Source of the DNA: a virus
Taxonomy: Duplodnaviria; Heunggongvirae; Uroviricota; Caudoviricetes
Strand: one strand, 5' to 3'
Length of the DNA: 64,000 nt
IMG/VR virus record: IMGVR_UViG_3300047160_005224
Coordinates: 96,403 to 160,402 of that record
Shown: positions 10,270 to 29,324 of the stretch, in pieces
Position numbering within the stretch: position 1 is the stretch's first letter
Layout: every line of letters starts with the position of its first letter
Translations under genes and position numbers: made by a program
Notes under the pieces: model-generated
Told to the model about the DNA's origin: nothing
The model's database searches: none
The model's input: only the letters and a program-made list of their open reading frames with translations

Positions 10270-10274
10270 AGAAT

Positions 10275-10363: not shown

Positions 10364-10373
10364 GTTTGAAACT

Positions 10374-11273: not shown

Positions 11274-11336
11274 GATATAGTTCCGTTTTGGTGGTGGAAA
11301 GTTTTCAGAGAACCTATCGTAGCATTCTCGTGCGTC

Positions 11337-11379
11337 AAACAAAAGAGGAGCTGCCCAATGAGGGACCTAGAAGGGCAGC
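11337..11379 (-). terminator. rho-independent terminator at the 3' end of the tmRNA coding piece
   Basis: Hairpin GCUGCCC...GGGCAGC followed on the minus strand by UCCUCUUUUGUUUG. Confidence 0.6.
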
Positions 11380-11700
11380 GAGTCTAGGGAGATTGTCGGT
11401 CAAGACTGCCGATTAGGCAGCGAGACGGACCTCAAACGTGTCATCGTTTGCGTTTACTTTGTTTTATGCCGATTACGTCGGGCATCTCTCGGGCTGTCAG
11501 CTCGCATATCTTCCCACGTCGAAACCTGGTCCACCCCATCAAAAACACAGTGTCCATAACGCGGACTTGTCTCGACTTCGCAGAGTGCACATACCGCTGA
11601 TCGTCTAACTGTGCTTTTGGTGGAGTGGGCGGGAATCGAACCCGCGTCCGCAAGACCTTTTGGTCACATCATACAGCCATAACTTCAAAGATGTACTCTA
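11345..11700 (-). ncRNA. ssrA: tmRNA (ssrA), circularly permuted two-piece form
   Basis: tRNA-like 3' half GGACGCGGGUUCGAUUCCCGCCCACUCCACCA at 11650-11618 lies upstream of the 5' acceptor strand GGGGUGG (11537-11531; G3-U70 pair). Then GACCAGGUUUCGACGUGGGA, close to E. coli GGGGCUGAUUCUGGAUUCGACGGGA. Tag frame GCA-AAC-GAU-GAC-ACG-UUU-GAG-GUC-CGU-CUC-GCU-GCC-UAA reads ANDDTFEVRLAA. Terminator follows. Confidence 0.7.
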
Positions 11701-12044
11701 CCGTGCTTTTGTAGGGGTAAGCAAAGCAGCCATTCTTCAGAGTCCTGCAGAACCCAAGAACGCTTTCTTTACTGCACGCGAAACCATTACGTTTGTCGTA
11801 GAGCACATGTTTGAAACTACTGGGCGCTTCGCCAGTCACACTCGCGAGCTTTCTCGTTTTGAGTATTCGTCAGATGCGCATTAACCTGTTTACATCAGGT
11901 CAGACTAGTCCTCAATTCTTCTTCGCCGGCAAACTTGCCCCATTCGTCAATAGGATTTGCCTTACAGCGGGGTACCACCTTTTGCGGTATCAGACCTGCA
12001 GCAAGCGGGACTGGCGAAGCACCCAGTAGAAACAGTATATAGCT

Positions 12045-15135: not shown

Positions 15136-15323
15136 TCCTTGTACATGTCATTGCCCCATGGATCAACACCCATCCCAATGCCCATGATGAATCCAACGGC
15201 AAGAGAAAAGGTTAACAGCGCCAGGAATCCGTGTTGAGTATCAGCCAGTTGGATTGCCAGTGCGCCCAGCAATCCACCAACAATGAACGCGATGATGCGA
15301 ATTGGCCAATCCCTCATCACCAT
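15129..15323 (-). CDS. small membrane protein (~65 aa, 2 TM)
   Basis: Hydrophobic minus ORF, trimmed from 15428. Confidence 0.4.
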   Translation of the reverse strand: MVMRDWPIRIIAFIVGGLLGALAIQLADTQHGFLALLTFSLAVGFIMGIGMGVDPWGNDMYKDW

Positions 15324-16021
15324 CCCTCCATCGGAAACGGCAGATAGACTTGCGCATTCATGCGGATTTCGTTCGTGACGTTCTTTTGACGATCGGTCTG
15401 AATCGAAGCACGACCGAACCAACGCCAACCGTTCTTGCGCGCAGGAATGGCTTGATGGAAGTCGAACGAATCGAACAGGATCAACTGGCGATCCGGGACT
15501 TCGAGTACATCGACGGTTCCGTTCTTGACCATTTCCTCCAGCTCAAGATGCCACTGTCGATAGATGAGTTCGCCATCCGGGACCTGCTTCATCTTGCATG
15601 TGCCATGGATGAATTGGGTCGGTGCGACTTCAGCATTGACCAACCCCATCATATGCACTGCCTTGTACGACATGTTCTCGTAATCAGGCTGCGATGCCGT
15701 CAGGAAATGCTGGCCAGCAGGAATGGGCGGACGAGGAACATCGTCGTGGTGCCAGCCGGGAATGCCAGGATACCAACCAGGCATCAGCATGTGCACACGA
15801 CTGTCGAACACCGCATTGTCCCAGTCGACATGGCCAGGAAGATTGCCGATGAAGGACTTGGTGATCGGTCCGCCATGTTCGAAAGCAAACTTTGCGCTGG
15901 CATTGAAGAACATCGGTTCCTTCTTGATGTCTTCGTTGGGCACCTGCTCAGCAAACCTGACTGGCCTACTAGTAGAACTCATGGCATGCCAGCCGCTGTA
16001 GAAGACCTTGCCTTCCTTCAT
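15317..16021 (-). CDS. putative 2OG-Fe(II) oxygenase superfamily protein (PhyH-like)
   Basis: 234 aa. HxD-like motif GWHHDD and a C-terminal His-x10-Arg (FHQAIPARKNGWRW). Sits immediately upstream of NadV. Confidence 0.4.
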   Translation of the reverse strand: MKEGKVFYSGWHAMSSTSRPVRFAEQVPNEDIKKEPMFFNASAKFAFEHGGPITKSFIGNLPGHVDWDNAVFDSRVHMLMPGWYPGIPGWHHDDVPRPPIPAGQHFLTASQPDYENMSYKAVHMMGLVNAEVAPTQFIHGTCKMKQVPDGELIYRQWHLELEEMVKNGTVDVLEVPDRQLILFDSFDFHQAIPARKNGWRWFGRASIQTDRQKNVTNEIRMNAQVYLPFPMEGW

Positions 16022-17463
16022 ACCGAAGCCCTCTTGCGGATGTTGTCGAAGATGTCGAGGCGAACGTGGGTGTCGGTCGTGTCATGGTGATAGACCGTTT
16101 CGAGTTGATTTCGCGGAGCATCCATGCCGAGCGCGAACCACGCGCTCTTACGCATCGTGCCCCAAACATCGCCATCACGGATCACGGCGAACTGACCGCG
16201 CTTCGACTTCTTGCCTTTGTCGGTCACCGGATCCTTGTAGATGTCGACTTCCTTGCCATTCACGATGCCCCAACTTGCCTTCATCGCCCACTTGAAGGTG
16301 TCACGATTGACTTGCTGGAGCAAACCGCCGCCCATGCCGAAGGCAAGGCAGTCCATCGAGAAGCCACGATTGAGCAAGTTGTCGATGATTTTGGGAATCG
16401 ATGTAACATTGATGCCGTCGCCCTGGATCACGCCGACATACGGCGGAAGGACCTTGTAGCCCTTGTCGTTGATCAGCTTCTCAGGAGTCAGATCCCAAAG
16501 CATCTCGACGATGTCGATCGGAACTACCAACGGATCGCCGCTGTCGGGGCGGATGACGACCTTGCATCCCTTCGCCTTGACTTGTTCCAGAAGACCGGTG
16601 CCGACCCAGAGGTTTCGCACGGCATTGTAGATGTCGTAGGCGTCCGATACCACAGCAAAGATCTTGCCAGGCTCGGTGGCGTACGCATCGATCATTGCCT
16701 GGAAGGCTTCACGTTCGCCTTCCTTGCCGCGGATCGTCATGGTGCTGTGCTCTGCGGCAGGAATCGAGAAGCCGCAGACGTCAGCGTTGTAGTAGTGCAT
16801 GGCAGCAGCGATGCCGGCGATGGTGTCCGAGCCCATGAAATTGATCAGATGGGCAGCACCACCAAGCTGTGCCGACTCATCGCTCGAGACGCCGCGATAA
16901 CCGAAGTCGTGTAGCTTGAACGTGACGCTTGCGGGATCACCAGAACGATCCAGAGCATCAAGGATGTATTCCTTGCAAGTGCGCGAAATCGTGGCGACGG
17001 TCGAACCATACCAGACGCTGCTCAGGATTGCCGGCTCGAAATACGAAGTGAGCCATGCGCACTTGTCGTCGGTGTTGACGATTTGGACCATCGGAGTGCC
17101 GATCGGGACAGGCGTGCCTTCCGGAATGGCTTCGATGTGAAGCGGAAGGAAGCCCTGGTGATGATTGACGATGTACAGCCAGCCATCGAGATTGAACGGC
17201 TCGCCATGAACCTTGGCGAACGCTGCCGCCTCGTTGACTTCTTCGACGGTGATTGGCTGTAACAGGAAGTCCTTGACGAACTTCTGAAGACCGAACATGA
17301 CGACATGTTCGACACCTTGGATGGTCGAGCCACGCGCTTCGATGTACGACGAGATGTACTTGGTACCTTTGGGATACTGCGCGAAATGGCTGAGCTTGTA
17401 GCTGTCCGTCTTCAGGAGACGGTTATTGAGAATCGACATCAGAAACTCCTTCTTGATGGTCAT
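16018..17463 (-). CDS. nadV: nicotinamide phosphoribosyltransferase (NAMPT/NadV family)
   Basis: ~480 aa with the conserved NAMPT N-terminus LLKTDSYKLSHF. PRTase type II length and composition. Confidence 0.75.
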   Translation of the reverse strand: MTIKKEFLMSILNNRLLKTDSYKLSHFAQYPKGTKYISSYIEARGSTIQGVEHVVMFGLQKFVKDFLLQPITVEEVNEAAAFAKVHGEPFNLDGWLYIVNHHQGFLPLHIEAIPEGTPVPIGTPMVQIVNTDDKCAWLTSYFEPAILSSVWYGSTVATISRTCKEYILDALDRSGDPASVTFKLHDFGYRGVSSDESAQLGGAAHLINFMGSDTIAGIAAAMHYYNADVCGFSIPAAEHSTMTIRGKEGEREAFQAMIDAYATEPGKIFAVVSDAYDIYNAVRNLWVGTGLLEQVKAKGCKVVIRPDSGDPLVVPIDIVEMLWDLTPEKLINDKGYKVLPPYVGVIQGDGINVTSIPKIIDNLLNRGFSMDCLAFGMGGGLLQQVNRDTFKWAMKASWGIVNGKEVDIYKDPVTDKGKKSKRGQFAVIRDGDVWGTMRKSAWFALGMDAPRNQLETVYHHDTTDTHVRLDIFDNIRKRASV

Positions 17464-17508
17464 TGGCAGGGAGGCATCTGTTGCCTCCACAGAGTAGATA
17501 GGAGAAGT

Positions 17509-17991
17509 TTAGTCCTTCAGCAGCGGACCAAACACTACATCGCCGGTCAGTTTACGGAACGCCAGCTTCGAGACAATGGACTTGCGTTTCCGCTCGCGCT
17601 CAGAGGCATCCCAATCCTTGCGGAGAGCAGCTTGCTCGATCCGAACATTGATGTGGGCATAGACTTCGAGCATGATGGACACAACTTCCGGATCATCTTC
17701 GCATTGGAAGTAACCATCAAAGAGATTGCCGGAAACTTCCGAGCCGAGTTTGATTTCCTCGTCACCGATCATGTATGTCACACGAACGGAGTTGTATCCA
17801 AATCCACGTTCGAGATAGACCTTGAGAGGACCGCCCGTTGCGGGAATGCTGAACGACAGAGTCCACTCACGATCACGGACCTGACGAGCAGATGGAGCAT
17901 GCCAAGTAAGATGGCGGATAGCTCCTTCCATCATCTTGTCGAACGCCTGCCAGCGTTCACGAATTCTGCGACGCTTCTTGAAGCCAAACAT
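17509..17991 (-). CDS. hypothetical protein (160 aa)
   Basis: Minus ORF. Confidence 0.5.
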   Translation of the reverse strand: MFGFKKRRRIRERWQAFDKMMEGAIRHLTWHAPSARQVRDREWTLSFSIPATGGPLKVYLERGFGYNSVRVTYMIGDEEIKLGSEVSGNLFDGYFQCEDDPEVVSIMLEVYAHINVRIEQAALRKDWDASERERKRKSIVSKLAFRKLTGDVVFGPLLKD

Positions 17992-18443
17992 CAGTAGGTC
18001 TCCGCTTCGCGTTCGATGAGATCGGCAAGCGCGCCGAAATCGAGATTGTAGGTGTCGTTGAGTTCAGAAAGCTCATACTTCCTGGGAAATTTGTCTTCGG
18101 CCGAGGCACCACGCACTCCTTCATCAACTTCTGATGTCAGAGCGTGCACACTCAAAGAGTACCCAACACCATCGTTCCATTGCTGGGACGCTTCCGGAAG
18201 TTCAATACCGTGATCACGATACCAACCCAACGTTGGCAGTGAGCAAGGCTCACTGATGCCGATTGGGGAATTGTATTCGACTTTACCGTCAGCAACCATC
18301 TGCAGGACGCCAAGACAGCAGTAACCGACTTCTCCATCAGGACGTTTTGCTTGGAGGAAATGGCATGCTTGGTTGTATCGTTCCGAGCACAGAGCTTCGA
18401 CCCACTTGGTCAACAGCTCTTTGGGCATTTTGAACAAGCTCAT
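17991..18443 (-). CDS. paralog family member 1 (150 aa; WVEALCSERYNQ...CCLGVLQMVADGK...LNDTYNLDFGALADLIE)
   Basis: Shares N- and C-terminal motifs with five downstream paralogs. Confidence 0.6.
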   Translation of the reverse strand: MSLFKMPKELLTKWVEALCSERYNQACHFLQAKRPDGEVGYCCLGVLQMVADGKVEYNSPIGISEPCSLPTLGWYRDHGIELPEASQQWNDGVGYSLSVHALTSEVDEGVRGASAEDKFPRKYELSELNDTYNLDFGALADLIEREAETY

Positions 18444-18676
18444 GATTCGGTTGCCTTGGTGACAAAGTTATGAACGGTTTCTGACAGTTCGTTCTCGCCC
18501 ATATATCCTAACTTAGACGAAAGCCAATCCATATCAGCCTTCGATACAACCACGAACTCTTCTTCCCAGTTGGTGATCTTTGGAAAGTGAAGGATCGTAC
18601 TTGCCGGAACGGTGCTTGGCAGAAAGACTGCGACCGTGAATCCATTACCAGGAAATGTTCCGACTTCGATCTTCAT
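18440..18676 (-). CDS. hypothetical protein (78 aa), inserted between paralogs
   Basis: Minus ORF. Confidence 0.45.
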   Translation of the reverse strand: MKIEVGTFPGNGFTVAVFLPSTVPASTILHFPKITNWEEEFVVVSKADMDWLSSKLGYMGENELSETVHNFVTKATES

Positions 18677-19131
18677 CAGACACCTTCCACGTACTTCTCG
18701 ACGAGATTGGCGATCTCCACGAACGAGAGACCTACTTCGTCGTTCAGTGCCGAAAGCGAATAACGACCGCCAATCATGTCAACGATGCTGGCGCGTCCAG
18801 TCGGAAGATTGAATGCCTTGATATCAGACAAAGAGACTTCAATCACGATCGGAATTTCATCACACGCCATCATTCCGGCACTGTATTCAAAACCAGGATC
18901 CGGTTCGATGTTGTGCTCTTCATACCAGCGAATGATTGGAAGCGCTGGGCGAGGATTGCCTTCGCTGTCGTCGATCTTGCCATCAGCAACCATCTGCAGG
19001 ACGCCGAGGCAGCAATAGCTGTGTTCACCGGAAGAATCGGTATCCCTCATCGTTCCAGTGCATTGCTTGTATTCGCCAGAACGAAGCGCGGCAATCCAGT
19101 TGTTCTTGAGTTCAGCAGGCATCTTCGACAT
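18676..19131 (-). CDS. paralog family member 2 (151 aa)
   Basis: Motifs WIAALRSGEYKQ, CCLGVLQMVADGK and C-terminal LNDEVGLSFVEIANLVE. Confidence 0.6.
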   Translation of the reverse strand: MSKMPAELKNNWIAALRSGEYKQCTGTMRDTDSSGEHSYCCLGVLQMVADGKIDDSEGNPRPALPIIRWYEEHNIEPDPGFEYSAGMMACDEIPIVIEVSLSDIKAFNLPTGRASIVDMIGGRYSLSALNDEVGLSFVEIANLVEKYVEGV

Positions 19132-19136
19132 GGCGA

Positions 19137-19613
19137 TTAGTCCGTTACTTCGATATTGGGTTCGAGGATATCAGCGATGTGAGCAAAATCGCACTGATAT
19201 TCGTCGTTCAGGATAGGAACGCGAATTGTCCTGATCGCAGATTCGCTTTCCGTCTCGACAATAGCACTCACCAATGGATTGGTGTTTACTATAGCTGCAA
19301 CGGACGCACCCGAGAACGAAATCCCATGTTTGATGAGCCAGTCAGAGCTTGGCAGACCAAGAGAATCACCATCGGGAAAGTGTTCGACTTGGCCATCCAC
19401 GACCATCTGCAGGACGCCGAGGCAGCAGAACTTTCCTTCATTGGTCATCAACTGACCGATGCCCTTTTGGAATTGACCAGAACGAAGACCTTCCAGCCAT
19501 TTCTCTTTGATGATGCGCGGCATACGCATCGTGCATTCGACAGGAGTCTTGACAGGATTGATCACCATGTCGGAGTCGATATGGCAGACGTCGGCAACTT
19601 CGATCTTGTTCAT
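19137..19613 (-). CDS. paralog family member 3 (~159 aa from MNKIEV; ORF extends to 19886)
   Basis: Motifs WLEGLRSGQFQKG, CCLGVLQMVVDGQ and C-terminal LNDEYQCDFAHIADILE. Confidence 0.55.
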   Translation of the reverse strand: MNKIEVADVCHIDSDMVINPVKTPVECTMRMPRIIKEKWLEGLRSGQFQKGIGQLMTNEGKFCCLGVLQMVVDGQVEHFPDGDSLGLPSSDWLIKHGISFSGASVAAIVNTNPLVSAIVETESESAIRTIRVPILNDEYQCDFAHIADILEPNIEVTD

Positions 19614-19623
19614 GACTGATTCC

Positions 19624-20061
19624 TCAGGTGCTCTCGATGGATGCTTCGAGGAAGTCCGCCATTTGCTCGAACGACGCGCCAGCATCGTTGACATGAGCAG
19701 CATTGAACATCCCTTCGTAGCCAGTTCGCTCTTCACGAAGGAACAGCATTGGTGCGCGAAGTGTGCCGTTTGCCAAGTCGCCGGATTGGCGCTGAAACAG
19801 AATGTTGTGTTCCTGCAACCATTCGACAGATGGAAAACTGGCGAATTTGGGCTCGAAGGCCAACGCATCATCCTCGACGCGACCACTCACCACCATCTCG
19901 AGAACACCCAAACAGCAGTAACCGCCCCTGCCGTCACACAAAGAACCGAAGCCCTGTTGATATTCACCAGAACGGAGAGCGCTCAACCACTTTTCCTTGA
20001 TTTCAGCAGGCATCGTGATGCTCTTGCGACCAACAGCAGTGTAACTTTCCATCGACATGAC
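19624..20061 (-). CDS. paralog family member 4 (~146 aa from MSMESY; ORF extends to 20349)
   Basis: Motifs WLSALRSGEYQQG, CCLGVLEMVVSGR and C-terminal VNDAGASFEQMADFLE. Confidence 0.55.
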   Translation of the reverse strand, partial: VMSMESYTAVGRKSITMPAEIKEKWLSALRSGEYQQGFGSLCDGRGGYCCLGVLEMVVSGRVEDDALAFEPKFASFPSVEWLQEHNILFQRQSGDLANGTLRAPMLFLREERTGYEGMFNAAHVNDAGASFEQMADFLEASIEST

Positions 20062-20068
20062 TTGTTCC

Positions 20069-20524
20069 TCAGATGATTTCGATTGCCGTTTCCAGGATAT
20101 CAGCAATCTCCAGGAAGTCATAGCCGTCGTCGTTGAGAGCAGTGACATTGACAACCGTACTGCAACGTGTTCCGGAGATATTTTCCTGCATGCGAATGAA
20201 CGGTGAGCGGCGGTATTCGGAGTCCACCCACAGCTCCTGACCAACAGGCATCGGATACATGAACTTGATGTTGTTCGCGTCCAGCCATGCCATGGTAGGA
20301 ACCCTTTCGTAGTTGCCGGGATGCAGTGCTTCACGTTCGCACTTGCCACTCACCACCATCTGCAGAACGCCCAGGCAACAATATCCACCATTGCCATCAC
20401 ACAAAGCTTTCCTGCCTTGCTGGTATTCACCAGAACGGAGAGCGCTCAACCACTTTTCCTTGATCTCTGCGGACATGAAAACGCTCTTGATGCCGAGGGT
20501 GTCGCTCTTTGTCAGATGACTCAT
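20069..20524 (-). CDS. paralog family member 5 (151 aa)
   Basis: Motifs WLSALRSGEYQQG, CCLGVLQMVVSGK and C-terminal LNDDGYDFLEIADILE. Confidence 0.6.
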   Translation of the reverse strand: MSHLTKSDTLGIKSVFMSAEIKEKWLSALRSGEYQQGRKALCDGNGGYCCLGVLQMVVSGKCEREALHPGNYERVPTMAWLDANNIKFMYPMPVGQELWVDSEYRRSPFIRMQENISGTRCSTVVNVTALNDDGYDFLEIADILETAIEII

Positions 20525-20534
20525 GACCGGTTCC

Positions 20535-21029
20535 TCAGTAGGTCTGGATCAGCGGCTCGAGAAAGTCAGCGATTTCCTCGAACGTGCAGCCGTTGTCGTT
20601 GAGCGAAGCGGCGGATTCGCAGGTTTCCGTCGGAGGAAGCTTGATGAGATTGCCCTCGTCATCTTCTTCCGTGGGTTCGAGTTCCGTGACGTAGATCGTC
20701 GGAACGGTGACGGCATAGCCAAGATGGTCGAAGAACTTGATGCCGTTTGCAGTCAACCACTCCATCGGAGGAACGGCGTCGCAAAGCGGGTTGCCTTGCA
20801 TATCGAATTCGCCGTCCGCTGCGCCGTGCGAAACTTCGCCGCTGACCACTTCCTGCAGGACGCCGAGACAGCAGTAGCTGGCATTGCCATCAGCATCGAA
20901 TCGCTTGAGTCGACCACTGCACTGCTGGAATTCGCCGGAGCGAAGTGCTGCCATCCACTTCTCCTTGATGGCTTCCGGCATGGTGGCAACAAACGGCAGG
21001 TGGGGCTGCGGACGGGCTTCGTACTTGGA
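20535..21029 (-). CDS. paralog family member 6 (~165 aa; ORF extends to 21086)
   Basis: Motifs WMAALRSGEFQQC, CCLGVLQEVVSGE and C-terminal LNDNGCTFEEIADFLE. Confidence 0.55.
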   Translation of the reverse strand, partial: SKYEARPQPHLPFVATMPEAIKEKWMAALRSGEFQQCSGRLKRFDADGNASYCCLGVLQEVVSGEVSHGAADGEFDMQGNPLCDAVPPMEWLTANGIKFFDHLGYAVTVPTIYVTELEPTEEDDEGNLIKLPPTETCESAASLNDNGCTFEEIADFLEPLIQTY

Positions 21030-21133
21030 CATGGGAATTCTCACGATTGGAGCAGCAGGGATTGCCACTCTTCTATTCATACTCACAGTGACTGATTATA
21101 GTCAGTCGACTGACCAAAGAAACGGTTGATGAC

Positions 21134-21469
21134 TCAACGATGGGACTGGTTGTCTTCGTCGCCGGTCAGTTTGTCGATGATGCTGTGGTAGGAAGTCTGC
21201 ATTGCGTGCAGATAGACCAGGCGAGCACAGATGCTCTTGAGGTAGATGCGACAGAACAGGAGCATGACGTCATCCTGCTCCGGAACCAAGTCCGCGATGC
21301 TGGTGGTGAACACCGGATGATCAATCACCACCTCGTAGCTCTTCTCGTCGAACAACGGCGTCAGCCGGCGAACCGTCACGGTATGCTCGGTTTGAGCGAT
21401 GATCTCGAAGATGTGGTACTCATGACCAAAGAGGCGACAGAGCTTGGTCTTCATGACACTTTCCTTCAC
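21134..21469 (-). CDS. hypothetical protein (111 aa)
   Basis: Minus ORF. Confidence 0.5.
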   Translation of the reverse strand: MKESVMKTKLCRLFGHEYHIFEIIAQTEHTVTVRRLTPLFDEKSYEVVIDHPVFTTSIADLVPEQDDVMLLFCRIYLKSICARLVYLHAMQTSYHSIIDKLTGDEDNQSHR

Positions 21470-21936
21470 TGTTCGTAACTGCGGAGTGGGACACGGAGAG
21501 CCGCCATGACCGAAGACTCGAACGCTCGCATGCCAGCAGCGTCGAATCGTTGGGCATGGCGCTGGTATTCACGGCGAAGCGGAAGCAGAGCGCGCTCGAG
21601 TTCATCGACCTTGGTCGCGTCGGTCTGCATCTTCTGCGCGGCGATCTCGGCCAAGGATTCCTGCTCGCGAGCAGCCCAGGCGAGGCGATCAGCTTCGTGT
21701 TCCCAGGTGCGGATCCAGCGAACCTTCTGAAGATTGATCACGCTGGTATCGGTGAACTGGGCGCCAGTGTAGACCTGGCCACAGCGAATCTTGACCTTCT
21801 TCGATTCGAACAGCCATTCGCGGCTTTCGCACTTGCCATCCGCATCGAGAGTCCGCAGAGAGACACCCTTCTTGAAACCCTTGAGGACGACGTAACCGGT
21901 GCAGACGAAATCCTTGGCGATGCCTTCAGTGCTCAT
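21466..21936 (-). CDS. hypothetical protein (156 aa)
   Basis: Minus ORF with ATGA overlap. Confidence 0.5.
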   Translation of the reverse strand: MSTEGIAKDFVCTGYVVLKGFKKGVSLRTLDADGKCESREWLFESKKVKIRCGQVYTGAQFTDTSVINLQKVRWIRTWEHEADRLAWAAREQESLAEIAAQKMQTDATKVDELERALLPLRREYQRHAQRFDAAGMRAFESSVMAALRVPLRSYEQ

Positions 21937-22265
21937 ATGTTTGCCTCAGTCTTTGCTAGACGGCGACGCAGACCACGTTCCGAATCTGCGACAGGAAAGG
22001 GTTGCCAACAAACAGGAGTGATGGCGAGCGGCTTCCATCGCACAGGCAGTGGACCTTCAGAAGGATGCCACCGTGCCACATCGATGCCCCACCAGTCGCC
22101 CAGGCGGTCATTGGGATTGATGTTCTCCGCGCGGTGCGCCATCCAGCATGCCGGCATGACGTTCCAGTGCTCGCCATTCGGCGTCTCGGTCACCAGGATC
22201 ATCGTGCCGTCTTTGGGCGCGCTGGTCATTGGCAACCACTTCGAGCGCTTTCTCTTAGCGGCCAT
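21933..22265 (-). CDS. hypothetical protein (~110 aa, Trp-rich)
   Basis: Minus ORF, N-terminus trimmed. Confidence 0.45.
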   Translation of the reverse strand: MAAKRKRSKWLPMTSAPKDGTMILVTETPNGEHWNVMPACWMAHRAENINPNDRLGDWWGIDVARWHPSEGPLPVRWKPLAITPVCWQPFPVADSERGLRRRLAKTEANI

Positions 22266-22485
22266 CACTTTTCTCCATGTAGCGGCGAGCCGCATACTCA
22301 AGATAACTCGCCGCAATCAACAACTCGACTTCCTTACTATGGTCGAGACCCAGATAGGCGAGACCGAGACAATGCCAACCGACATCTGCTTCGTCCTCGG
22401 TGGCGGTCTGAAGCGACTTCGTGAACTGAGCAGTCAGCTTCTTGAAGCCTTCCAGGTCGACTTTGATGGTGGGTCCGTCGGACAT
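22255..22485 (-). CDS. hypothetical protein (76 aa)
   Basis: Minus ORF. Confidence 0.4.
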   Translation of the reverse strand: MSDGPTIKVDLEGFKKLTAQFTKSLQTATEDEADVGWHCLGLAYLGLDHSKEVELLIAASYLEYAARRYMEKSDGR

Positions 22486-22486
22486 G

Positions 22487-22843
22487 TCACTTCACCAGGT
22501 AATAGTTGGCGAGGAAGTCGAGATGTTCTTCCGTCTTCTCGACTTGTTGTTTGGCTTCTTGCAACATCTTGACACGGCGATTGTACCAGGTCTTGTTGAT
22601 CGGCGCCAACGAGCATTCCGACACCAACGCATACTTGGTACCATCCGGTCCCTTGGTCTTACCAAGGCGCGAAGTGGTTTTGAGAACCGCGCCACTCCAG
22701 CCATCGAGCCAGTAGACCTTGTAGTAGGTGTCGTTGACTTCCTTGACCTGGCACGCTTCCCACGTTCCAGTCCGAGAATTCTTCCGGCGAAGCGCCAAAT
22801 ACCACTGGCCGACCGTCACGTACTCCGGGATCATGCTCTTCAT
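22487..22843 (-). CDS. hypothetical protein (118 aa)
   Basis: Minus ORF. Confidence 0.5.
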   Translation of the reverse strand: MKSMIPEYVTVGQWYLALRRKNSRTGTWEACQVKEVNDTYYKVYWLDGWSGAVLKTTSRLGKTKGPDGTKYALVSECSLAPINKTWYNRRVKMLQEAKQQVEKTEEHLDFLANYYLVK

Positions 22844-23376
22844 TAGAAGCTCTCCGAGAAGACCTTGGTGGTGCCGCGACCGTTCTGGTACAGCACACGC
22901 CCGCCAGTGACCAGATATCCAGCGCCATCCTTGTAGTCACCGTCCGAGAAGGTACGCGGATCCACAACCACACGACTGCCCGGGGCATTGCCCACCACCG
23001 CATGATCGATGTCGGTCGCGGTGTACCAGCGATAGTTCGGGTGGACGTGAATCGACTCGCCGACCCACTTGTAACCTTCGACCACGGCGCCTTCAGGAGT
23101 GGCACAGAATCCATGGGCGTGGACCGTGACCAGGACAACGGACATGTTTCCGGCTTCGTTCGCAGCCAACTGGCCGCATGCCTCGAAGCGAGAGTCGTGA
23201 ATCCACTTATCGAGGATCACGGCGACGCGGTCAATGAACTGAACCTTGGTTTCACCCGGGTTCTGCACGACCTGCTGGATGAACTCCATGCGGACGGTCG
23301 GAACATCATCGGCGCGAGCAAAGCCCGACACCATACCCAGAGCGAAAGCAGCAGCGGCGAACAAGAAGCGTTTCAT
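22843..23376 (-). CDS. secreted hypothetical protein (177 aa, N-terminal signal peptide)
   Basis: N-terminus MKRFLFAAAAFALGMVSGFARA looks like a Sec signal. Confidence 0.5.
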   Translation of the reverse strand: MKRFLFAAAAFALGMVSGFARADDVPTVRMEFIQQVVQNPGETKVQFIDRVAVILDKWIHDSRFEACGQLAANEAGNMSVVLVTVHAHGFCATPEGAVVEGYKWVGESIHVHPNYRWYTATDIDHAVVGNAPGSRVVVDPRTFSDGDYKDGAGYLVTGGRVLYQNGRGTTKVFSESF

Positions 23377-23392
23377 GACGAAAATCCTTGGT

Positions 23393-23500
23393 CAATAGAA
23401 GAGAAGAGCGGCACCAAGCATCACGACCAGATAGATCGCAAAGTCGATCCAGGTGCCTTCGGCATAGAACCAGTTGTGGAACGGATCGTGGATACGCATC
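23393..23500 (-). CDS. small membrane peptide (~35 aa; MRIHDPFHNWFYAEGTWIDFAIYLVVMLGAALLFY)
   Basis: Sub-threshold minus ORF between genes. Confidence 0.25.
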
Positions 23501-23690
23501 ACACAATTTCCACGACTTCGCGAACCTTCATACGCTCATCCACCGGCAGGCGATCGAGAGCATCCAGCGGATCGAGACCCTTGACCGGCATCTCGGAACC
23601 ATCGTGGAGCCAAGCCCGGAACCAGCGCTGGCGCTTACGCGGCAGGCGAGAAACGGAGGAGGTAGCGCGAGCGGTCGAGCGAGATTTCAT
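23499..23690 (-). CDS. hypothetical basic protein (63 aa)
   Basis: Minus ORF with RBS AAAGAGG. A hairpin and the promoter cassette lie upstream. Confidence 0.45.
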   Translation of the reverse strand: MKSRSTARATSSVSRLPRKRQRWFRAWLHDGSEMPVKGLDPLDALDRLPVDERMKVREVVEIV

Positions 23691-23730
23691 TGGTTTAGCC
23701 TCTTTGGTTTATCGAAGCGGGCTTCCCCGC

Positions 23731-23860
23731 TACAGTTACAATCATACGCCCGTTCTTTGGGAAGTCAAGAACTAAAATGCCTGCCGCGTCAATGACTTAC
23801 ACGCTTTTCAACGAGTCAATGTAAGTCACTGATTTGGCAGGCAACGTAAGTCATTGATTC
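23731..23860 (-). promoter_or_regulatory. sigma70-like promoter (TTGACT-N16-TATGAT) with three copies of the AATCA(A/G)TGACTTAC motif
   Basis: Motifs at 23788-23800 (direct), 23821-23834 and 23845-23860 (inverted). -10 at 23741-23746 and -35 at 23764-23769 in minus orientation. Confidence 0.5.
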
Positions 23861-23905
23861 CACTTGGAAACAGGGCTTAACGGAAATTTAACGATTTCTT
23901 AACGT

Positions 23906-24976
23906 TTACAGGCGCGGCAACAATTGGAGCATCGTCTCGATGATTTGGAAGTGATCCTCAAACATGTTCGAAGATCCGATGTCATTCAGCGGAAGCCAGA
24001 AAGAACGCACCACGCCACCATCCGGATCACACTTGGTCTTAAGTTTCGGAAGATCCTTTGTGTCATCCAGCTTGATGAGGAATGCGGTGGTTACAGTTCT
24101 GCCGCGCAAAGAACGTTCCGGATCATCGAAGATCTCTTTGGCGACAATTCGTCCACGAAGAACTTCCTTCTGGATATTGATGCCGGTCTCTTCGTCCAGT
24201 TCGCGAAGCATCGAATCGACAAGCCGATCCTTCTGTTCGACGAAGCCACCAGGGAGACAGTACAATCCCTTGCCTGGTGTCTTACCACGTTCGCATAGAA
24301 GAATGTGACCCGATTGGATCACGACAGCGTCCACCGTCAAAAAGGTCGGTGGATATGGAGCGACTTCCCAACTCTTCTTGTACTTGGAGATGTCTTTGTA
24401 TTCCTCGATCAAACATTGGATCTGATCGGTATTCTTCAACAGCAAAAGCTTGTTGAAGACAGATTGCGGAACACTTCCGTGCGCGTAGGCAAGCTGATCC
24501 GTGAAATAGAACTCACGAATCTTCGTGGCGTCGATGTTGAAGCTTTCACCAGGACCGAGTTCCTTGTACGGAATCTCGCTGAAAGCGAAATTCGGGAACC
24601 AGTCGAGATAACGCGAGGTGTTGTCCTTGTTGTGACCTACCAAGACAACAGATCCCTTGCGCGGAAGCTTGTAGTGGTCCAGAATGACCTTCACACGTCC
24701 ATTGACGCGCGAGATCCACGCCTGATCGCTCGGGCTGTCAAACACATAAGTCACATCCGGCGCAGGAAGACCCAACTCCACGCAGGAGTTCAAGATCATC
24801 TGCTCGCGTTGTGCGATCGTGAATGGATTTTTGATGGTGCGTGGTCCGCCAGTATCACCTAGCAGGACCAGCACTCGATGAGCGATCTTGAACGCTTCCG
24901 AGATCAGATGCATGTGTCCGTTGTGAACAGGATGCATCCGACCGATGACAATTGCGACTTCGTATTGCTTGGACAT
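23906..24976 (-). CDS. natV: bifunctional NMN adenylyltransferase / Nudix ADP-ribose pyrophosphatase (NadM/NatV-like)
   Basis: N-terminal HxGH nucleotidyltransferase motif (HPVHNGH). C-terminal Nudix box GGFVEQKDRLVDSMLRELDEETGI. Confidence 0.75.
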   Translation of the reverse strand: MSKQYEVAIVIGRMHPVHNGHMHLISEAFKIAHRVLVLLGDTGGPRTIKNPFTIAQREQMILNSCVELGLPAPDVTYVFDSPSDQAWISRVNGRVKVILDHYKLPRKGSVVLVGHNKDNTSRYLDWFPNFAFSEIPYKELGPGESFNIDATKIREFYFTDQLAYAHGSVPQSVFNKLLLLKNTDQIQCLIEEYKDISKYKKSWEVAPYPPTFLTVDAVVIQSGHILLCERGKTPGKGLYCLPGGFVEQKDRLVDSMLRELDEETGINIQKEVLRGRIVAKEIFDDPERSLRGRTVTTAFLIKLDDTKDLPKLKTKCDPDGGVVRSFWLPLNDIGSSNMFEDHFQIIETMLQLLPRL

Positions 24977-25033: not shown

Positions 25034-25690
25034 TCAACGCTGTTCTTCGACCGGAAGCGCTTCCAAGACACGATGCGCGATATTCCATCGCGCCATCTTC
25101 TCGAAAGCGTCATAGCCCCAACCCGTATGGTAGATACGGTCATTGGTTTCGATGAGTCCCTTGAGGAACTTAGCGTTGCCTACAGCTATCATGTCGTATG
25201 GACGGAACAAAGCATACTCCATTACGACATCATCTGTGTTGTCCTTGAATTGGCGCCAAGGCAATGCCAACGATGCAAGATCAATGTCAAGCATCAGAGC
25301 TTCCAACTCAGTTTCCGGGATGTACTTGCCGTGCTTGGCGGTCGCCAAGATTAAATCTTCGGCATCCCGCTGGATGCTATACCATTCAGGATTGTTTATA
25401 GCAAGTGGATAGTCGACAGCGCAGTAGCGCATGAATTCGATGCTCTCAAATTCACTGTAGCCAGGAGTAACCATCTGAGCTTCTGCGTTGTAGATTGCAT
25501 CATGGAACCAGATGGCAATCTCAAGAGCCGTCCACTGTTCTTCCTTGAAGTGTTTGAACTCATCCTGCTTCTTGGCTTCTTCCATGCGAGCCAAACAGAA
25601 GTTGATGTGATTCAAATTGTGATAATGGCGACCAGGAGCACTATACAGCGCAACGAGTCGATGCATGTTATGAACAATGAAGTAGTTCAT
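25034..25690 (-). CDS. hypothetical protein with His-rich HD-like motifs (possible metal-dependent phosphohydrolase)
   Basis: 218 aa; motifs HYHNLNH and WFHDAIYN. Confidence 0.4.
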   Translation of the reverse strand: MNYFIVHNMHRLVALYSAPGRHYHNLNHINFCLARMEEAKKQDEFKHFKEEQWTALEIAIWFHDAIYNAEAQMVTPGYSEFESIEFMRYCAVDYPLAINNPEWYSIQRDAEDLILATAKHGKYIPETELEALMLDIDLASLALPWRQFKDNTDDVVMEYALFRPYDMIAVGNAKFLKGLIETNDRIYHTGWGYDAFEKMARWNIAHRVLEALPVEEQR

Positions 25691-26394
25691 TCGTCAACCT
25701 CAATCAGCATTGGTGGGTTCTTGCGCTTATAGGAACGATCTAGCATGGCGACATTGTAGAACGTTGTTCCATTCTTGGCGAGCACTCCATAGTTTTCATG
25801 GATGTGTCCACAGATCCAGATCTCGGGCTTAGCAACTTGCTGGAGAAAATTCCACGCTTTCACACCATAATGTGATCCGTCGAGAACGCCGAACGGAGGA
25901 CTATGCGTGACGACGATATCAACATGCTTGATATCCTCAAGCATGAAGTCCAGCATCCTATCCAAGTCTTGTTCAGTTCGATTGAATCCCCAGCCAGGCA
26001 GATCGGTCACGAAAGGAAGACCCAGAACAGTCATGCCGTTTGGCAATTTGTGGGTGAAGTATTTTGGGTGAGTGCCGAGCATTTGGACATGAGCATCAGT
26101 CCGCAGATCTTGGTTAGCAGGTCCGGTGAACAATTCGACGAAGATGTCATGATTGCCTGGAACATATAGCTTCAACGGAGCGTCTACTGTTGCCAGAGAA
26201 TCCACTCGACCATTCCACTCACCTTCGGTTCCATGGTACATCAAATCGCCAGCATGTACAAACACGTCGCATTCAGGAAACCAACGACTCTGACCTCTTA
26301 GTTCGTTGGTCTCATTGATCGCCTGAGCGTCAAAATTGAAGTGCGTGTCGGCAGTCGCCAAAATCTTAAAACTCACAAATCTCTCCATCAACAA
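25687..26394 (-). CDS. calcineurin-like metallophosphoesterase
   Basis: Motifs GDLMYHG, GNHD and GHIHEN. Confidence 0.7.
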   Translation of the reverse strand: MLMERFVSFKILATADTHFNFDAQAINETNELRGQSRWFPECDVFVHAGDLMYHGTEGEWNGRVDSLATVDAPLKLYVPGNHDIFVELFTGPANQDLRTDAHVQMLGTHPKYFTHKLPNGMTVLGLPFVTDLPGWGFNRTEQDLDRMLDFMLEDIKHVDIVVTHSPPFGVLDGSHYGVKAWNFLQQVAKPEIWICGHIHENYGVLAKNGTTFYNVAMLDRSYKRKNPPMLIEVDE

Positions 26395-27110: not shown

Positions 27111-28544
27111 TCAGAGATCGTAGCGCGGGTTCATCAGGGTCTTCAGCATGACCGACTCGGGAGTCATCAGCTGGGCACCCAGGATCGACTTCGCGATCGA
27201 CGGCGAGAAGCCAGAGATCAGAGCAGCACCAGACTGGTGCTGGGTGACCGGACTGTTGCCGACACGACCGTTGACGTTCCAGAACACCAGCTGCGGCATC
27301 GCGTAACCAGCCGCCTTGTACTTCGCTTCGATGTTCTCGAAGTTGGTAGAGCGGTTGGCAGCGCAGGAGTCGAACTCCATGTCCGAAATCACCAGCACCT
27401 TGGTCGGCAGGTCTTCGTTCGACAGACCGTGCTTCTTCGCGGTGTTGAGGATCAACTCGAACGCAGCCTGGAGATTGGTGTTCATCTCCCACTTCGCGGT
27501 CTCGAGCTGCGACACACGATCACGCAGAGTTCCCTTAACGACCTGGAGCGTCGGAGTGTTCGAGAACGTGATGAACGCATCCTTGAACGGTCCGTTCAGC
27601 TTCTCGGACACGTACAATGCCAGCGAGATGCAGATGTCCATCGGAGTGACGTTGCCGATGTTTCCGCGATTGGTGCCATAGCCCCAGTTAGTCATCGACC
27701 CAGAGGTGTCGGCGACCACGATCAGGCGCTCGTCGGAACCTTCCAGCCAATTCGGCAGAGCCTTCCACTGCTCATTGGCAGCGTCCTGCTCGACCTTGTT
27801 GTAGGAAGCACGCAGCGAACGGATGATGTCGTACGGGAACACCGCCGAGGCGTTGATCTTGGCTTCGCCAGCCTGGACCTTTGTCACGAAGGTCTGGAAC
27901 TTCTCTGGCGCGCGCTTCGAGAAGGCACGCTTGTAGCGAGCGAACGCCACGGACGGAACCTGGTTGTACTTGATTTCGTCCCACTTGCCGGCGCACATCG
28001 CCTGCTCGACGGTGTTCGACAGATTGACGATCGTCTTGCGGTACTGCTTTGGCGTGTAGCCAAGCAAATGACGTAAGCGGACAGCGTCTTCGCCCTTGCG
28101 AGGCAGCCACTTTGCCAACAGACCATTCTTCTGTGCGATACCTTCGCGCACTAGTTCGACGACTTCGTTTTCGATCGGCGAACGCAGACCGATGAGAATG
28201 TCGTCCCAGCGACCGAGTTCCGGAACCTTGGTCAGGACCGCGAGAGCGGCATCCTTGTGGTTGCGGATCAGCCAGCCGAACAGATTGCGAAACTGCTGAC
28301 GTTCACCAGCACCTTCGCGAGCATCACGCAGCCACTGGACCAGGCGCAGAGCCAGGTATTCGTCTTCGGCAAAAGCCTTGGCGAACTGAGCGGTGAGGTC
28401 ATTGCCACGAGACGCGCCGGCGATGAAGAACAGATCCACGAGCGCCGACAGCGAGGACTTGAAGGTCTTTGCGCCATTGTAGGTCTGGGCAGTGTTCTGC
28501 GAGGCAGAAGATGCGATTGCGTTGACGAGCTTGTTACGTGCCAT
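27111..28544 (-). CDS. vWA-domain protein with long alpha-helical N-terminal domain (possibly TROVE/Ro60-like)
   Basis: 477 aa; MIDAS motif VVADTSGSMT in the C-terminal third. TROVE assignment is inference from domain layout only. Confidence 0.5.
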   Translation of the reverse strand: MARNKLVNAIASSASQNTAQTYNGAKTFKSSLSALVDLFFIAGASRGNDLTAQFAKAFAEDEYLALRLVQWLRDAREGAGERQQFRNLFGWLIRNHKDAALAVLTKVPELGRWDDILIGLRSPIENEVVELVREGIAQKNGLLAKWLPRKGEDAVRLRHLLGYTPKQYRKTIVNLSNTVEQAMCAGKWDEIKYNQVPSVAFARYKRAFSKRAPEKFQTFVTKVQAGEAKINASAVFPYDIIRSLRASYNKVEQDAANEQWKALPNWLEGSDERLIVVADTSGSMTNWGYGTNRGNIGNVTPMDICISLALYVSEKLNGPFKDAFITFSNTPTLQVVKGTLRDRVSQLETAKWEMNTNLQAAFELILNTAKKHGLSNEDLPTKVLVISDMEFDSCAANRSTNFENIEAKYKAAGYAMPQLVFWNVNGRVGNSPVTQHQSGAALISGFSPSIAKSILGAQLMTPESVMLKTLMNPRYDL

Positions 28545-28586
28545 GATGTAACTCCTTACGGATTGAGTTGGGTTTGTTTGCGGATT

Positions 28587-29072: not shown

Positions 29073-29082
29073 GATATAGATC

Positions 29083-29319: not shown

Positions 29320-29324
29320 CATGA

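What the first reader, a model, noticed from the sequence alone, without database searches (positions are those of the whole stretch)
15317..24976. NAD+ salvage pair (NAMPT/NadV and bifunctional NMNAT-Nudix/NatV) framing an accessory island
16018-17463 encodes a nicotinamide phosphoribosyltransferase. 23906-24976 encodes an HxGH NMN adenylyltransferase fused to a Nudix ADP-ribose pyrophosphatase. Together they can rebuild NAD+ from nicotinamide and ADP-ribose, the route described for phages resisting NAD-depleting immunity (NARP2-type). Here the two genes are 6.4 kb apart. Between them sit a 2OG-oxygenase-like gene, the six-paralog array, about 10 small ORFs, a secreted protein and a promoter cassette, so the whole block reads like an anti-defence island.
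Basis: partly seen in the sequence, partly recalled or inferred. Interest (0 to 1): 0.7.

Follow-up and report, generated by a model that had tools for sequence, protein, structure and literature searches.

The report
Split NAD+ salvage pair in phage
An uncultured soil phage carries the two well-known phage enzymes that rebuild NAD+ from nicotinamide (the "NARP2" pair), separated by a 6.5-kb block of small genes of unknown function that close relatives also carry, and nothing shows that this block fights host defences.

Summary
The two enzymes are real and intact. NadV is 16018-17439 on the minus strand. It is a full-length NAMPT with every catalytic residue of human NAMPT. NatV is 23906-24976 on the minus strand. 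It is an end-to-end NadM-Nudix homologue with H18-x-G-H21 and the REx2EE Nudix box. Together they are a new member of the known NARP2 / KVP40-type salvage pathway, which many large phages encode.

The 6.5 kb between them holds 16 minus-strand genes: six DUF8296 paralogues and ten others. It is not random cargo. Five metagenomic relatives (NatV 52-73% identical) share the frame: a conserved terminator-promoter cassette, a 63-aa protein, a signal-peptide protein, a DUF8296 array, a ~160-aa gene, NadV, then a 2OG-oxygenase-like gene. In the more distant phage DLP_6 the two enzymes are adjacent. In other lineages the gap holds unrelated genes.

No block protein matches a known anti-defence or defence family. 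DUF8296 is a large uncharacterised family whose confident model matches no solved fold. In 33 of 36 other viral loci it has no NadV or NatV gene within 10 kb.

The 2OG-oxygenase-like gene is real at fold level, but it lies downstream of NadV, not between the pair. The NARP2 reading is supported. The "anti-defence island" reading remains speculation.

The parts
16018..17439 (-). NadV: nicotinamide phosphoribosyltransferase (NAMPT), 473 aa
   Evidence: Pfam NAMPT_N 4.7e-24 and NAPRTase 7.9e-48. NCBIfam NF006629 at 549.7 bits against a cut-off of 405. PDB: bacterial NAMPT 7yqo 2.9e-120, human NAMPT 2gvg 4.5e-104. Catalytic residues conserved: D12, Y14, F179, R182, D205, H231, R297, D299, D341, G370-372, R379. 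The start is supported by an AGGAG Shine-Dalgarno sequence.
23906..24976 (-). NatV: bifunctional NMN adenylyltransferase (NadM type) fused to a Nudix ADP-ribose pyrophosphatase, 356 aa
   Evidence: Pfam CTP_transf_like plus NUDIX. Aligns end to end with Synechocystis NadM-Nudix 2qjo (6.5e-61) and Francisella 2qjt (7e-52). Motifs: H18-N-G-H21, T151..R154, and Nudix box G244-x5-D250-x7-R258-E259-L-x-E262-E263-x-G265-I266. About 30% identical over residues 8-347 to NatV of KVP40-like Vibrio phages.
15317..16021 (-). 2OG-Fe(II)-oxygenase-like protein (phrog_1843, 234 aa). Its start overlaps the NadV stop by 4 nt. It lies outside the pair.
17509..17991 (-). 160-aa basic protein directly upstream of NadV, function unknown
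   Evidence: ORF with a GGAG Shine-Dalgarno sequence. No family hit. A gene of 156-162 aa sits at the same position in relatives, 30% identical in L009.
17991..21080 (-). Tandem array of six DUF8296 (PF26948 / phrog_18067) paralogues: P1 17991-18443, P2 18676-19131, P3 19137-19613, P4 19624-20058, P5 20069-20524, P6 20535-21080. A 78-aa ORF (18440-18676) sits between P1 and P2.
21134..22843 (-). Five small ORFs of unknown function: 21134-21454 (106 aa), 21466-21936 (156 aa), 21933-22265 (110 aa), 22255-22485 (76 aa), 22487-22843 (118 aa)
   Evidence: ORFs; no family hits. The 106-aa frame is conserved in four relatives while its antisense frame is not. tblastn finds no counterpart of the other four in relatives L009-L011 and L013.
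22843..23376 (-). 177-aa protein with an N-terminal Sec-type signal peptide (phrog_16374, function unknown)
   Evidence: phrog_16374 2e-14. The signal peptide MKRFLFAAAAFALGMVSGFARA/DD was read directly from the sequence. 39-44% identical in relatives.
23392..23690 (-). Two overlapping small genes: a 63-aa very basic protein (23499-23690) and a 35-aa hydrophobic peptide (23392-23499)
   Evidence: Translations. The 63-aa protein is 76-79% identical in relatives, more conserved than NatV. The family is very narrow: 2 hits among 1.84 billion representatives.
23691..23905 (-). Intergenic cassette: a long terminator-like hairpin (TGCCTGCC..GGCAGGCA followed by UUUUAG), then the promoter TTGACT-16-TATGAT (23768-23741), then a short GC hairpin
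   Evidence: Promoter scan 10 of 12. Fold -70.4 kcal/mol, z = -4.2. Sequence blocks and the positions of the hairpin arms are conserved in four relatives.

Best explanation
The window comes from a phage of about 167 kb, a distant T4-like relative of Stenotrophomonas phage DLP_6. It was assembled from several metagenome samples, apparently soil or forest soil judging from one record name (JS_forest) and my recollection of a JGI sample (not verified).

The phage encodes a complete NARP2-type NAD+ salvage pathway:
- NadV condenses nicotinamide with PRPP to give NMN.
- The N-terminal NadM domain of NatV adenylylates NMN to NAD+.
- The C-terminal Nudix domain of NatV hydrolyses ADP-ribose (and possibly NAD(H)) to AMP plus ribose-5-phosphate, which a host PRPP synthetase could recycle.

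By analogy with KVP40, the pair keeps NAD+ available during infection. This would also blunt NAD+-depleting defences such as Thoeris, DSR and SIR2-HerA.

In this clade an ancestrally adjacent NatV-NadV pair, as seen in DLP_6, has been pushed apart by a block of small genes. The block starts with its own terminator-promoter cassette and is dominated by a tandem, fast-diverging array of DUF8296 genes. I read this block as the lineage's version of the T4-type hyperplastic early region next to the tRNA array. It is inherited vertically, with gain and loss of copies. It is not a mechanistic part of NAD+ salvage, and it is not shown to be anti-defence.

Shown here: gene identities, catalytic motifs, synteny and conservation. 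Inferred: enzyme activities, the counter-defence role, transcription units, and the direction of the rearrangement.
For: Enzymes:
- Family and structure-sequence matches with all catalytic residues.
- Homology to NatV of KVP40-like phages.
- Published NARP2 biochemistry and phenotypes (10.1101/2024.02.11.579819).
- NadV plus NadM co-occurrence across phages (PMC9503650).

Synteny:
- DLP_6 has MPE-NatV-33aa-NadV.
- Five relatives have NatV, 63-aa gene, signal-peptide protein, DUF8296 x4, a ~160-aa gene, NadV, then the 2OG-like gene, with gaps of 3.6-4.9 kb.
- The terminator-promoter cassette is conserved.
- The neighbourhood resembles the T4-like tRNA / e.x / nudE region, where the 2OG-like gene also sits in RB69 and a Klebsiella phage, with 33 tRNAs and a tmRNA just downstream here.

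No functional link between the block and NAD+:
- 33 of 36 viral DUF8296 loci have no NadV or NatV within 10 kb.
- The gap holds unrelated genes in B23, RAS14 and X1.
Against: - In every clade member seen, the DUF8296 array sits exactly between the two NAD+ genes. The cyanophage B23 also has a DUF8296 array about 7.5 kb from NadV. A functional link therefore cannot be excluded. The clade members are related enough (DUF2828 protein 74-82% identical) that shared position may simply be inheritance.
- No activity, expression or host data exist.
- The polarity (insertion in this clade versus deletion in DLP_6) rests on one outgroup plus the usual adjacency in other phages.
- The window covers only 64 of about 167 kb, so a NARP1 Adps gene elsewhere is not excluded.
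Confidence: 0.65

Rival explanations
1. The whole 15317-24976 stretch is one anti-defence island. NARP2 restores NAD+, while the DUF8296 array, the secreted protein and the small ORFs inhibit other or the same defence systems, for example as a diversified set of inhibitors of NADase effectors.
For: - DUF8296 paralogues are acidic (pI 4.4-5.0).
- They have a conserved scaffold with a hypervariable middle.
- Copy number varies (four copies in each relative inspected, two of them fused into one gene in L010 and L011, versus six here) and they diverge faster than flanking genes, 32-48% against 68-82%.
- There are signs of recombination among copies.
- There is a precedent for extended NARP operons, NARP1-AP with an added phosphatase (10.64898/2026.01.28.702374).
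- The array lies between the NAD+ genes in all clade members.
Against: - No block protein matches any annotated family in Pfam, PHROGs, NCBIfam or PADLOC.
- The DUF8296 fold has no informative match.
- DUF8296 mostly occurs away from NAD+ genes.
- The frame of the block is conserved, not shuffled as in typical anti-defence hotspots.
- No dedicated anti-defence HMM set or co-folding tool was available.
Confidence: 0.17
2. The pair is mainly an auxiliary metabolic module. It raises NAD+ supply for phage replication in nutrient-poor soil hosts, serving NAD+-dependent host and phage enzymes. Counter-defence is incidental. The intervening genes are unrelated early genes.
For: - NARP2 raises NAD+ even without a defence system, because it starts from PRPP.
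- NadV is present in 22% of medium-sized and 33% of jumbo phages (PMC9503650), which fits a general metabolic benefit.
- The region sits among nucleotide-metabolism genes (RNR subunits) and a large tRNA/tmRNA set.
Against: - The KVP40 pair abolished Thoeris and DSR2 defence experimentally.
- No NAD+-dependent ligase or other obvious NAD+ consumer was found among the ten large ORFs scanned in the window.
- The two roles are not mutually exclusive.
Confidence: 0.15
3. The 2OG-oxygenase-like gene, translationally coupled to NadV, together with the metallophosphoesterase and HD-type hydrolase genes just upstream of NatV, extends the pathway. They might process modified ADP-ribose or nicotinamide derivatives into usable substrates.
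For: - The NadV stop and the 2OG-like start overlap by 4 nt, and the gene follows NadV in all four relatives whose DNA was fetched.
- MPE-HD-NatV is conserved in the clade, and MPE is adjacent to NatV in DLP_6.
- The 2OG-like homologues lie 2-4 genes from the Nudix gene nudE in RB69 and PhiKpNIH-6.
- Precedent: the NARP1-AP phosphatase.
Against: - The 2OG-like family is found in 470 phage records, and in the two records inspected (RB69, PhiKpNIH-6) no NadV or NatV is annotated nearby.
- DLP_6 has no copy next to NadV.
- The associations could reflect shared T4-like synteny.
- No substrate can be inferred from the fold.
Confidence: 0.08

Closest known systems
NARP2 (NadV/Nampt plus NatV/Nmnat-Nudix) of Vibrio phage KVP40; Lee et al. 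2017 (PMC5388814, cited within PMC9503650); Osterman et al. preprint 10.1101/2024.02.11.579819
   Same: The same two enzyme families with intact catalytic motifs, both encoded in one large T4-like phage genome. NatV has the same NadM-Nudix fusion.
   Different: Only about 30% (NatV) identity to KVP40-like proteins. The phage is uncultured and its host is unknown. Activities and counter-defence were not tested. The genes are in different transcription units, separated by 16 genes.
NatV-NadV locus of Stenotrophomonas phage vB_SmaS-DLP_6 (KU682439.2), the nearest cultured relative
   Same: The gene order DUF2828-like, Toprim, metallophosphoesterase, NatV, NadV, small ORFs, tRNAs is shared. Identities: NatV 44%, NadV 52%, DUF2828 62%.
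   Different: In DLP_6 the two genes are 0.1 kb apart with one 33-aa ORF between them. There is no DUF8296 array, no 63-aa gene, no HD218 gene and no 2OG-like gene at this locus.
Bacterial NadM-Nudix enzymes (Synechocystis slr0787, PDB 2qjo; Francisella tularensis, PDB 2qjt)
   Same: Full-length collinear alignment with the HxGH motif and the Nudix box.
   Different: The first Glu of the Nudix box is Asp (D250) here. The context is a phage genome.
T4-type hyperplastic early region between the tRNA genes and nudE/e (seen here in RB69 and Klebsiella phage PhiKpNIH-6)
   Same: A run of small same-strand ORFs of unknown function next to a tRNA array. It includes the same 2OG-oxygenase-like family (58-62% identical) and a Nudix ADP-ribose hydrolase.
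   Different: Here the Nudix domain is fused to NadM, NadV is present, and the region carries a DUF8296 array and a tmRNA.
NARP1-AP, the extended NARP1 operon with an added Macro-domain phosphatase (10.64898/2026.01.28.702374)
   Same: It is a precedent for extra genes embedded in a phage NAD+ reconstitution locus.
   Different: It is a different pathway (Adps/Namat). The added gene there has a recognisable domain and a demonstrated activity. Nothing comparable is recognisable here.

Membership tests
NARP2 (phage Nampt + Nmnat NAD+ reconstitution pathway) | A Nampt (NadV) homologue with the NAMPT N-terminal domain and a PRTase barrel | tested here: met
   Pfam NAMPT_N and NAPRTase. NF006629 at 549.7 bits against a cut-off of 405. 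PDB NAMPT hits down to 2.9e-120.
NARP2 (phage Nampt + Nmnat NAD+ reconstitution pathway) | NAMPT catalytic and substrate-binding residues (human D16, Y18, F193, R196, D219, H247, R311, D313, D354, G383-384, R392) | tested here: met
   All are conserved in the alignment to human NAMPT 2gvg/3dgr: D12, Y14, F179, R182, D205, H231, R297, D299, D341, G370-372, R379. The list of human residues is from my own knowledge of the enzyme.
NARP2 (phage Nampt + Nmnat NAD+ reconstitution pathway) | An Nmnat (NadM-type HIGH nucleotidyltransferase) with an HxGH motif, encoded in the same genome | tested here: met
   GRMHPVH18NGH21 and IDATKIR motifs. End-to-end match to 2qjo and 2qjt. Both genes lie on one contig.
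NARP2 (phage Nampt + Nmnat NAD+ reconstitution pathway) | A Nudix domain fused to Nmnat, with the Nudix box (GX5EX7REUXEEXGU), as in KVP40 NatV | tested here: met
   Pfam NUDIX 2.8e-15. The box G244..D250..R258 E259 L x E262 E263 x G265 I266 has a conservative E-to-D change at the first acidic position.
NARP2 (phage Nampt + Nmnat NAD+ reconstitution pathway) | No Adps (the PRPS-like NARP1 enzyme) in the same genome; the Nampt belongs to the Nampt clade rather than the Namat clade | tested here: inconclusive
   None of the gene calls or family scans made on parts of 11-35 kb of the window and its matching contigs shows a PRPS-like gene, though not every ORF there was scanned. Only 64 of about 167 kb is available and no Namat/Nampt tree was built. 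The nearest phage homologues by tblastn are mostly annotated nicotinamide phosphoribosyltransferase, and several of those phages also carry NatV.
NARP2 (phage Nampt + Nmnat NAD+ reconstitution pathway) | Restores NAD+ during infection and overcomes NAD+-depleting defence | not testable with these tools
   This needs enzymology and infection assays. It has been shown only for the KVP40 genes.
Phage anti-defence island | Contains homologues of experimentally known anti-defence proteins, other than NARP2 itself | tested here: not met
   No annotated hit for any of the 16 intervening proteins in the Pfam, PHROG, NCBIfam or PADLOC scans made (not every protein was scanned against every library). 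No dedicated anti-defence HMM library was available.
Phage anti-defence island | Gene content varies between close relatives at a fixed genomic position | tested here: inconclusive
   The frame is conserved in five relatives. DUF8296 copy number (4 to 6) and four or five small ORFs differ, and the gap length is 3.6-6.4 kb.
DUF8296 (PF26948) / phrog_18067 | A significant match to the family profile | tested here: met
   phrog_18067 hits from 4e-7 to 5e-18 for all six. Precomputed PF26948 hits on all six. The local Pfam copy lacks this model, or at least returns no hit.
2OG-Fe(II) oxygenase superfamily (for 15317-16021) | A double-stranded beta-helix fold | tested here: met
2OG-Fe(II) oxygenase superfamily (for 15317-16021) | An HxD/E...H iron triad and a basic residue that binds 2OG | tested here: inconclusive
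   Invariant H91 H92 D93 D94, H189, R200 and R204 in 28 homologues fit the pattern. Their placement in the model's active site was not inspected, and no Pfam 2OG model matches.

The most novel reading that the evidence does not exclude
In this phage clade NARP2 has become the frame of a larger counter-defence module. The tandem, fast-diverging, acidic DUF8296 proteins have a confident predicted fold that matches nothing in the PDB. They could be a diversified set of binders or inhibitors of host immune effectors, possibly NADases, that act together with NAD+ resynthesis. The co-conserved 63-aa basic protein would regulate the module from the conserved promoter cassette. DUF8296 has more than 6,500 members and often occurs in arrays, so it would then be a large, unrecognised anti-defence family.
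Probability: 0.1. Interest if true: 0.7.

Novelty: new member of a known kind. Interest (0 to 1): 0.28.

Why it matters
The NAD+ salvage pair adds one more, divergent, soil-phage example of a pathway that is already characterised and widespread, so it changes little.

The useful by-product is a defined, testable locus. It contains a clade-conserved block between the two NARP2 genes, made mostly of a tandem DUF8296 array whose confident model matches no solved fold. It also contains a 2OG-oxygenase-like gene coupled to NadV, and a conserved terminator-promoter cassette. If any of these proved to cooperate with NAD+ reconstitution, it would extend NARP2 in the way NARP1-AP extended NARP1. It would also give a first function to a family of thousands of phage proteins.

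Tried and rejected
1. DNA-level search of phage genomes with the whole region found only a 60-120 nt patch inside the 2OG-like gene. There is no close cultured relative.
2. A single-protein scan of IMG/VR with NatV found nothing. Relatives were reached through the protein database and contig look-ups instead.
3. Function of DUF8296:
   - The best BFVD match is an uncharacterised phage protein at E 1.5e-3.
   - AFDB50 was not available.
   - The literature has nothing on DUF8296, PF26948 or the PHROG ids.
4. I tested a general linkage between DUF8296 and NARP2 and rejected it. Of 36 viral loci, only the same-clade locus has both genes, and two others have weak NadV-like hits.
5. The genes lying between NatV and NadV in B23 and RAS14 were compared with those here. 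None is similar.
6. The 2OG-Fe(II) oxygenase of Xanthomonas phage X1, which lies near that phage's NARP2, is not detectably related to the 2OG-like gene here (E 0.21).
7. An Rfam scan of 11-29 kb found only the tmRNA.
8. PADLOC gave no hits.
9. I looked for a NAD+-dependent ligase among ten large ORFs in the window and found none.
10. The antisense ORF over the 106-aa gene was rejected, because only the minus-strand frame is conserved.
11. The 63-aa protein has almost no relatives outside the clade, so its function could not be approached by homology.

Full report
**Context**

The 64-kb window is phage DNA. It carries 33 tRNA genes and a tmRNA at its left end, RNR subunits, and almost all genes on the minus strand. 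There is no close cultured relative at the DNA level. The nearest is Stenotrophomonas phage DLP_6, with NrdA 57% identical. Exactly the same proteins occur on metagenomic contigs from several samples, the longest 166,771 bp. The element is therefore an uncultured phage of about 167 kb. The tmRNA matches the betaproteobacterial tmRNA model, which hints at the host group.

**The two enzymes**

*NadV.* The minus-strand ORF 16018..17490 hits Pfam NAMPT_N and NAPRTase. It passes the NCBIfam equivalog NF006629 at 549.7 bits against a cut-off of 405. It matches solved NAMPT structures: 7yqo (depositor name 'Pre-B cell enhancing factor related protein') at 2.9e-120 and human 2gvg at 4.5e-104.

The alignment to human NAMPT shows that every residue I know to be catalytic or substrate-binding is conserved:

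| Here | Human NAMPT |
|---|---|
| D12, Y14 | D16, Y18 |
| F179, R182 | F193, R196 |
| D205 | D219 |
| H231 | H247 |
| R297, D299 | R311, D313 |
| D341 | D354 |
| G370-372 | G383-384 |
| R379 | R392 |

. The likely start is the ATG at 17439, which has an AGGAG Shine-Dalgarno sequence and was also chosen by gene callers, giving 473 aa.

*NatV.* 23906-24976 (356 aa) hits CTP_transf_like and NUDIX. It aligns end to end with the solved bifunctional NadM-Nudix enzymes of Synechocystis (2qjo, 6.5e-61) and Francisella (2qjt, 7e-52). It has H18-N-G-H21, the T151..R154 motif, and a Nudix box with RE-L-D-EE intact and a conservative E-to-D change at the first acidic position. It is about 30% identical over nearly its full length to NatV of KVP40-like Vibrio phages.

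**What the pair is**

This is the NadV/NatV pathway shown biochemically in Vibrio phage KVP40. It was later named NARP2 and shown to abolish type I Thoeris and DSR2 defence (preprint 10.1101/2024.02.11.579819). It is widespread:
- tblastn finds NadV in 2,020 phage records and NatV in 468.
- A survey reports NadV in 22% of medium-sized and 33% of jumbo phages, and that every NadM phage also has NadV (PMC9503650).

NARP2 starts from PRPP and nicotinamide. ADP-ribose is not a direct substrate.

**What lies between the two genes**

Sixteen minus-strand genes fill the 6,466 nt between the pair. In the order of transcription they are:
1. A 215-nt intergenic cassette.
2. A 63-aa very basic protein.
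3. A 35-aa hydrophobic peptide.
4. A 177-aa protein with a clear Sec-type signal peptide (phrog_16374).
5. Five small ORFs of 118, 76, 110, 156 and 106 aa.
6. Six DUF8296 paralogues, with a 78-aa ORF between the last two.
7. A 160-aa basic protein.

NadV follows. The cassette folds into a long hairpin ending in UUUUAG (z = -4.2), followed by TTGACT-16-TATGAT. Its sequence blocks and hairpin arms are conserved in four relatives. NatV therefore probably ends one transcription unit (DUF2828-Toprim-MPE-HD-NatV) and the block begins another. That is inference.

**Is the block an accessory or anti-defence island?**

Three lines of evidence bear on this.

*1. Synteny.* In DLP_6 the genes are adjacent: MPE, NatV, a 33-aa ORF, NadV. 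In Mendera, RpAliso, X1 and B23 at most two small genes separate them. Five metagenomic relatives of the window phage (NatV 52-73% identical) all carry the same frame: NatV, the 63-aa gene, the ~35-aa gene, the ~190-aa signal-peptide protein, one to three small ORFs, four DUF8296 copies (two of them fused into one 332-343 aa gene in L010 and L011), a ~85-aa ORF, a ~160-aa ORF, NadV, then the 2OG-like gene. The gaps are 3.6-4.9 kb.

Conservation is uneven:

| Gene | Identity to relatives |
|---|---|
| 63-aa protein | 76-79% |
| NadV | 68-73% |
| NatV | 52-57% |
| Signal-peptide protein | 39-44% |
| DUF8296 (best match) | 32-48% |
| 106-aa ORF | 27-43% |

The 118, 76, 110 and 156-aa ORFs have no detectable counterpart in the four relatives with DNA. 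So the block is a vertically inherited module with local gain and loss. It is not a mosaic of recently acquired cargo.

*2. Homology.* None of the 16 proteins matches an annotated family in Pfam, PHROGs, NCBIfam or PADLOC.

In other lineages where NatV and NadV are apart (RAS14 and CM1, 5.7 kb), the intervening genes are unrelated to those here. In KVP40-like ValKK3, NadV is not within the 4 kb fetched on either side of NatV.

**Reading**

The neighbourhood matches the T4-type hyperplastic early region next to the tRNA genes. Homologues of the 2OG-like gene (58-62% identical) sit 2-4 genes from the Nudix gene nudE, between the tRNA genes and lysozyme e, in RB69 and a Klebsiella phage.

The best-supported account is a bona fide NARP2 pair whose genes were separated, in one clade, by expansion of such a region. 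The acidic pI, fast divergence, copy-number change and recombination traces of the DUF8296 array fit an arms-race function. The traces are a 41-nt exact identity between P4 and P5 and a 24-nt perfect inverted repeat between P2 and P4. The constant position of the array between the NAD+ genes keeps a functional link possible. None of this shows anti-defence activity.

**Verdict**

- The NARP2 interpretation is supported.
- The 'anti-defence island' interpretation is not supported by any test available here. It survives only as a low-probability hypothesis.
- The finding is a new, divergent member of a known system, in a genomic setting that offers some well-defined targets for experiment.

Noticed in passing
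window 18774-18797 and 19673-19696: A 24-nt perfect inverted repeat lies inside two DUF8296 paralogues, 875 nt apart. In P4 it encodes the conserved AHVNDAGAS motif. In P2 its reverse complement encodes GRASIVDM in the variable region. My estimate of the chance expectation is about 1e-7. Only one other distant exact inverted repeat of at least 18 nt exists in the 64 kb. It could be a templated strand-switch mutation or an inversion site. The contigs L003 and L005 show the same, non-inverted arrangement.
   Followed up: partly
window 19961-20001 and 20424-20464: A 41-nt exact direct identity in the N-terminal motif region of neighbouring paralogues P4 and P5, which are otherwise 46% identical at protein level. 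This suggests gene conversion within the array.
   Followed up: no
window 58-10451 and 11322-11727: 33 tRNA genes are followed by a phage-encoded tmRNA (tag ANDDTFEVRLAA). The tmRNA matches the Rfam betaproteobacterial tmRNA model (100 bits) and the permuted tmRNA model, which suggests a betaproteobacterial host.
   Followed up: partly
window 25034-26388 (HD-type hydrolase 25034-25690; metallophosphoesterase 25687-26388): Two phosphohydrolase genes sit directly upstream of NatV in the same apparent operon. MPE-HD-NatV is conserved in all clade relatives, and MPE is adjacent to NatV in DLP_6. This may be an accessory part of NAD+/ADP-ribose metabolism, by analogy with the NARP1-AP phosphatase. 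It was not tested.
   Followed up: partly
window 23499-23690: The 63-aa protein (pI 10.8) is the most conserved gene of the block, at 76-79% identity in relatives whose NatV is 52-57% identical. It has only 2 distant relatives among 1.84 billion representative proteins. It is the first gene after the conserved terminator-promoter cassette and may be a regulator.
   Followed up: partly
window 21086-21134: A perfect 14-nt palindrome, GTCAGTCGACTGAC, abuts a TATAAT hexamer just upstream of DUF8296 paralogue P6. It may be an operator or internal promoter for the array.
   Followed up: no
window 34976-34997 and 38841-38862: A second long exact inverted repeat, 22 nt with arms 3.8 kb apart, lies elsewhere in the window.
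   Followed up: no
window 27111-34887: A conserved upstream cluster also seen in DLP_6 and the relatives: DUF2828/DUF7788 protein (PHROG 'RNA-binding protein', 477 aa), a VWA protein, an SPFH/Band_7 protein, an HD_4 hydrolase and a weak AAA_16 protein. The function of the cluster is unknown.
   Followed up: no
locus L001 (Stenotrophomonas phage RAS14) 5573-6172: In RAS14, where NatV and NadV are 5.7 kb apart, one intervening gene is annotated COG3236, which I recall to be the NADAR domain, fused to GTP cyclohydrolase II. This fits the published link between NADAR domains and phage NAD+ salvage neighbourhoods (PMC9503650).
   Followed up: no
window 18655-21095, plus strand: Long antisense ORFs (146-190 aa) span paralogues P2, P3, P4 and P6 on the plus strand. 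Family homology is on the minus strand, so these are probably codon-bias artefacts. Only the antisense ORF over the 106-aa gene was formally tested and rejected.
   Followed up: partly
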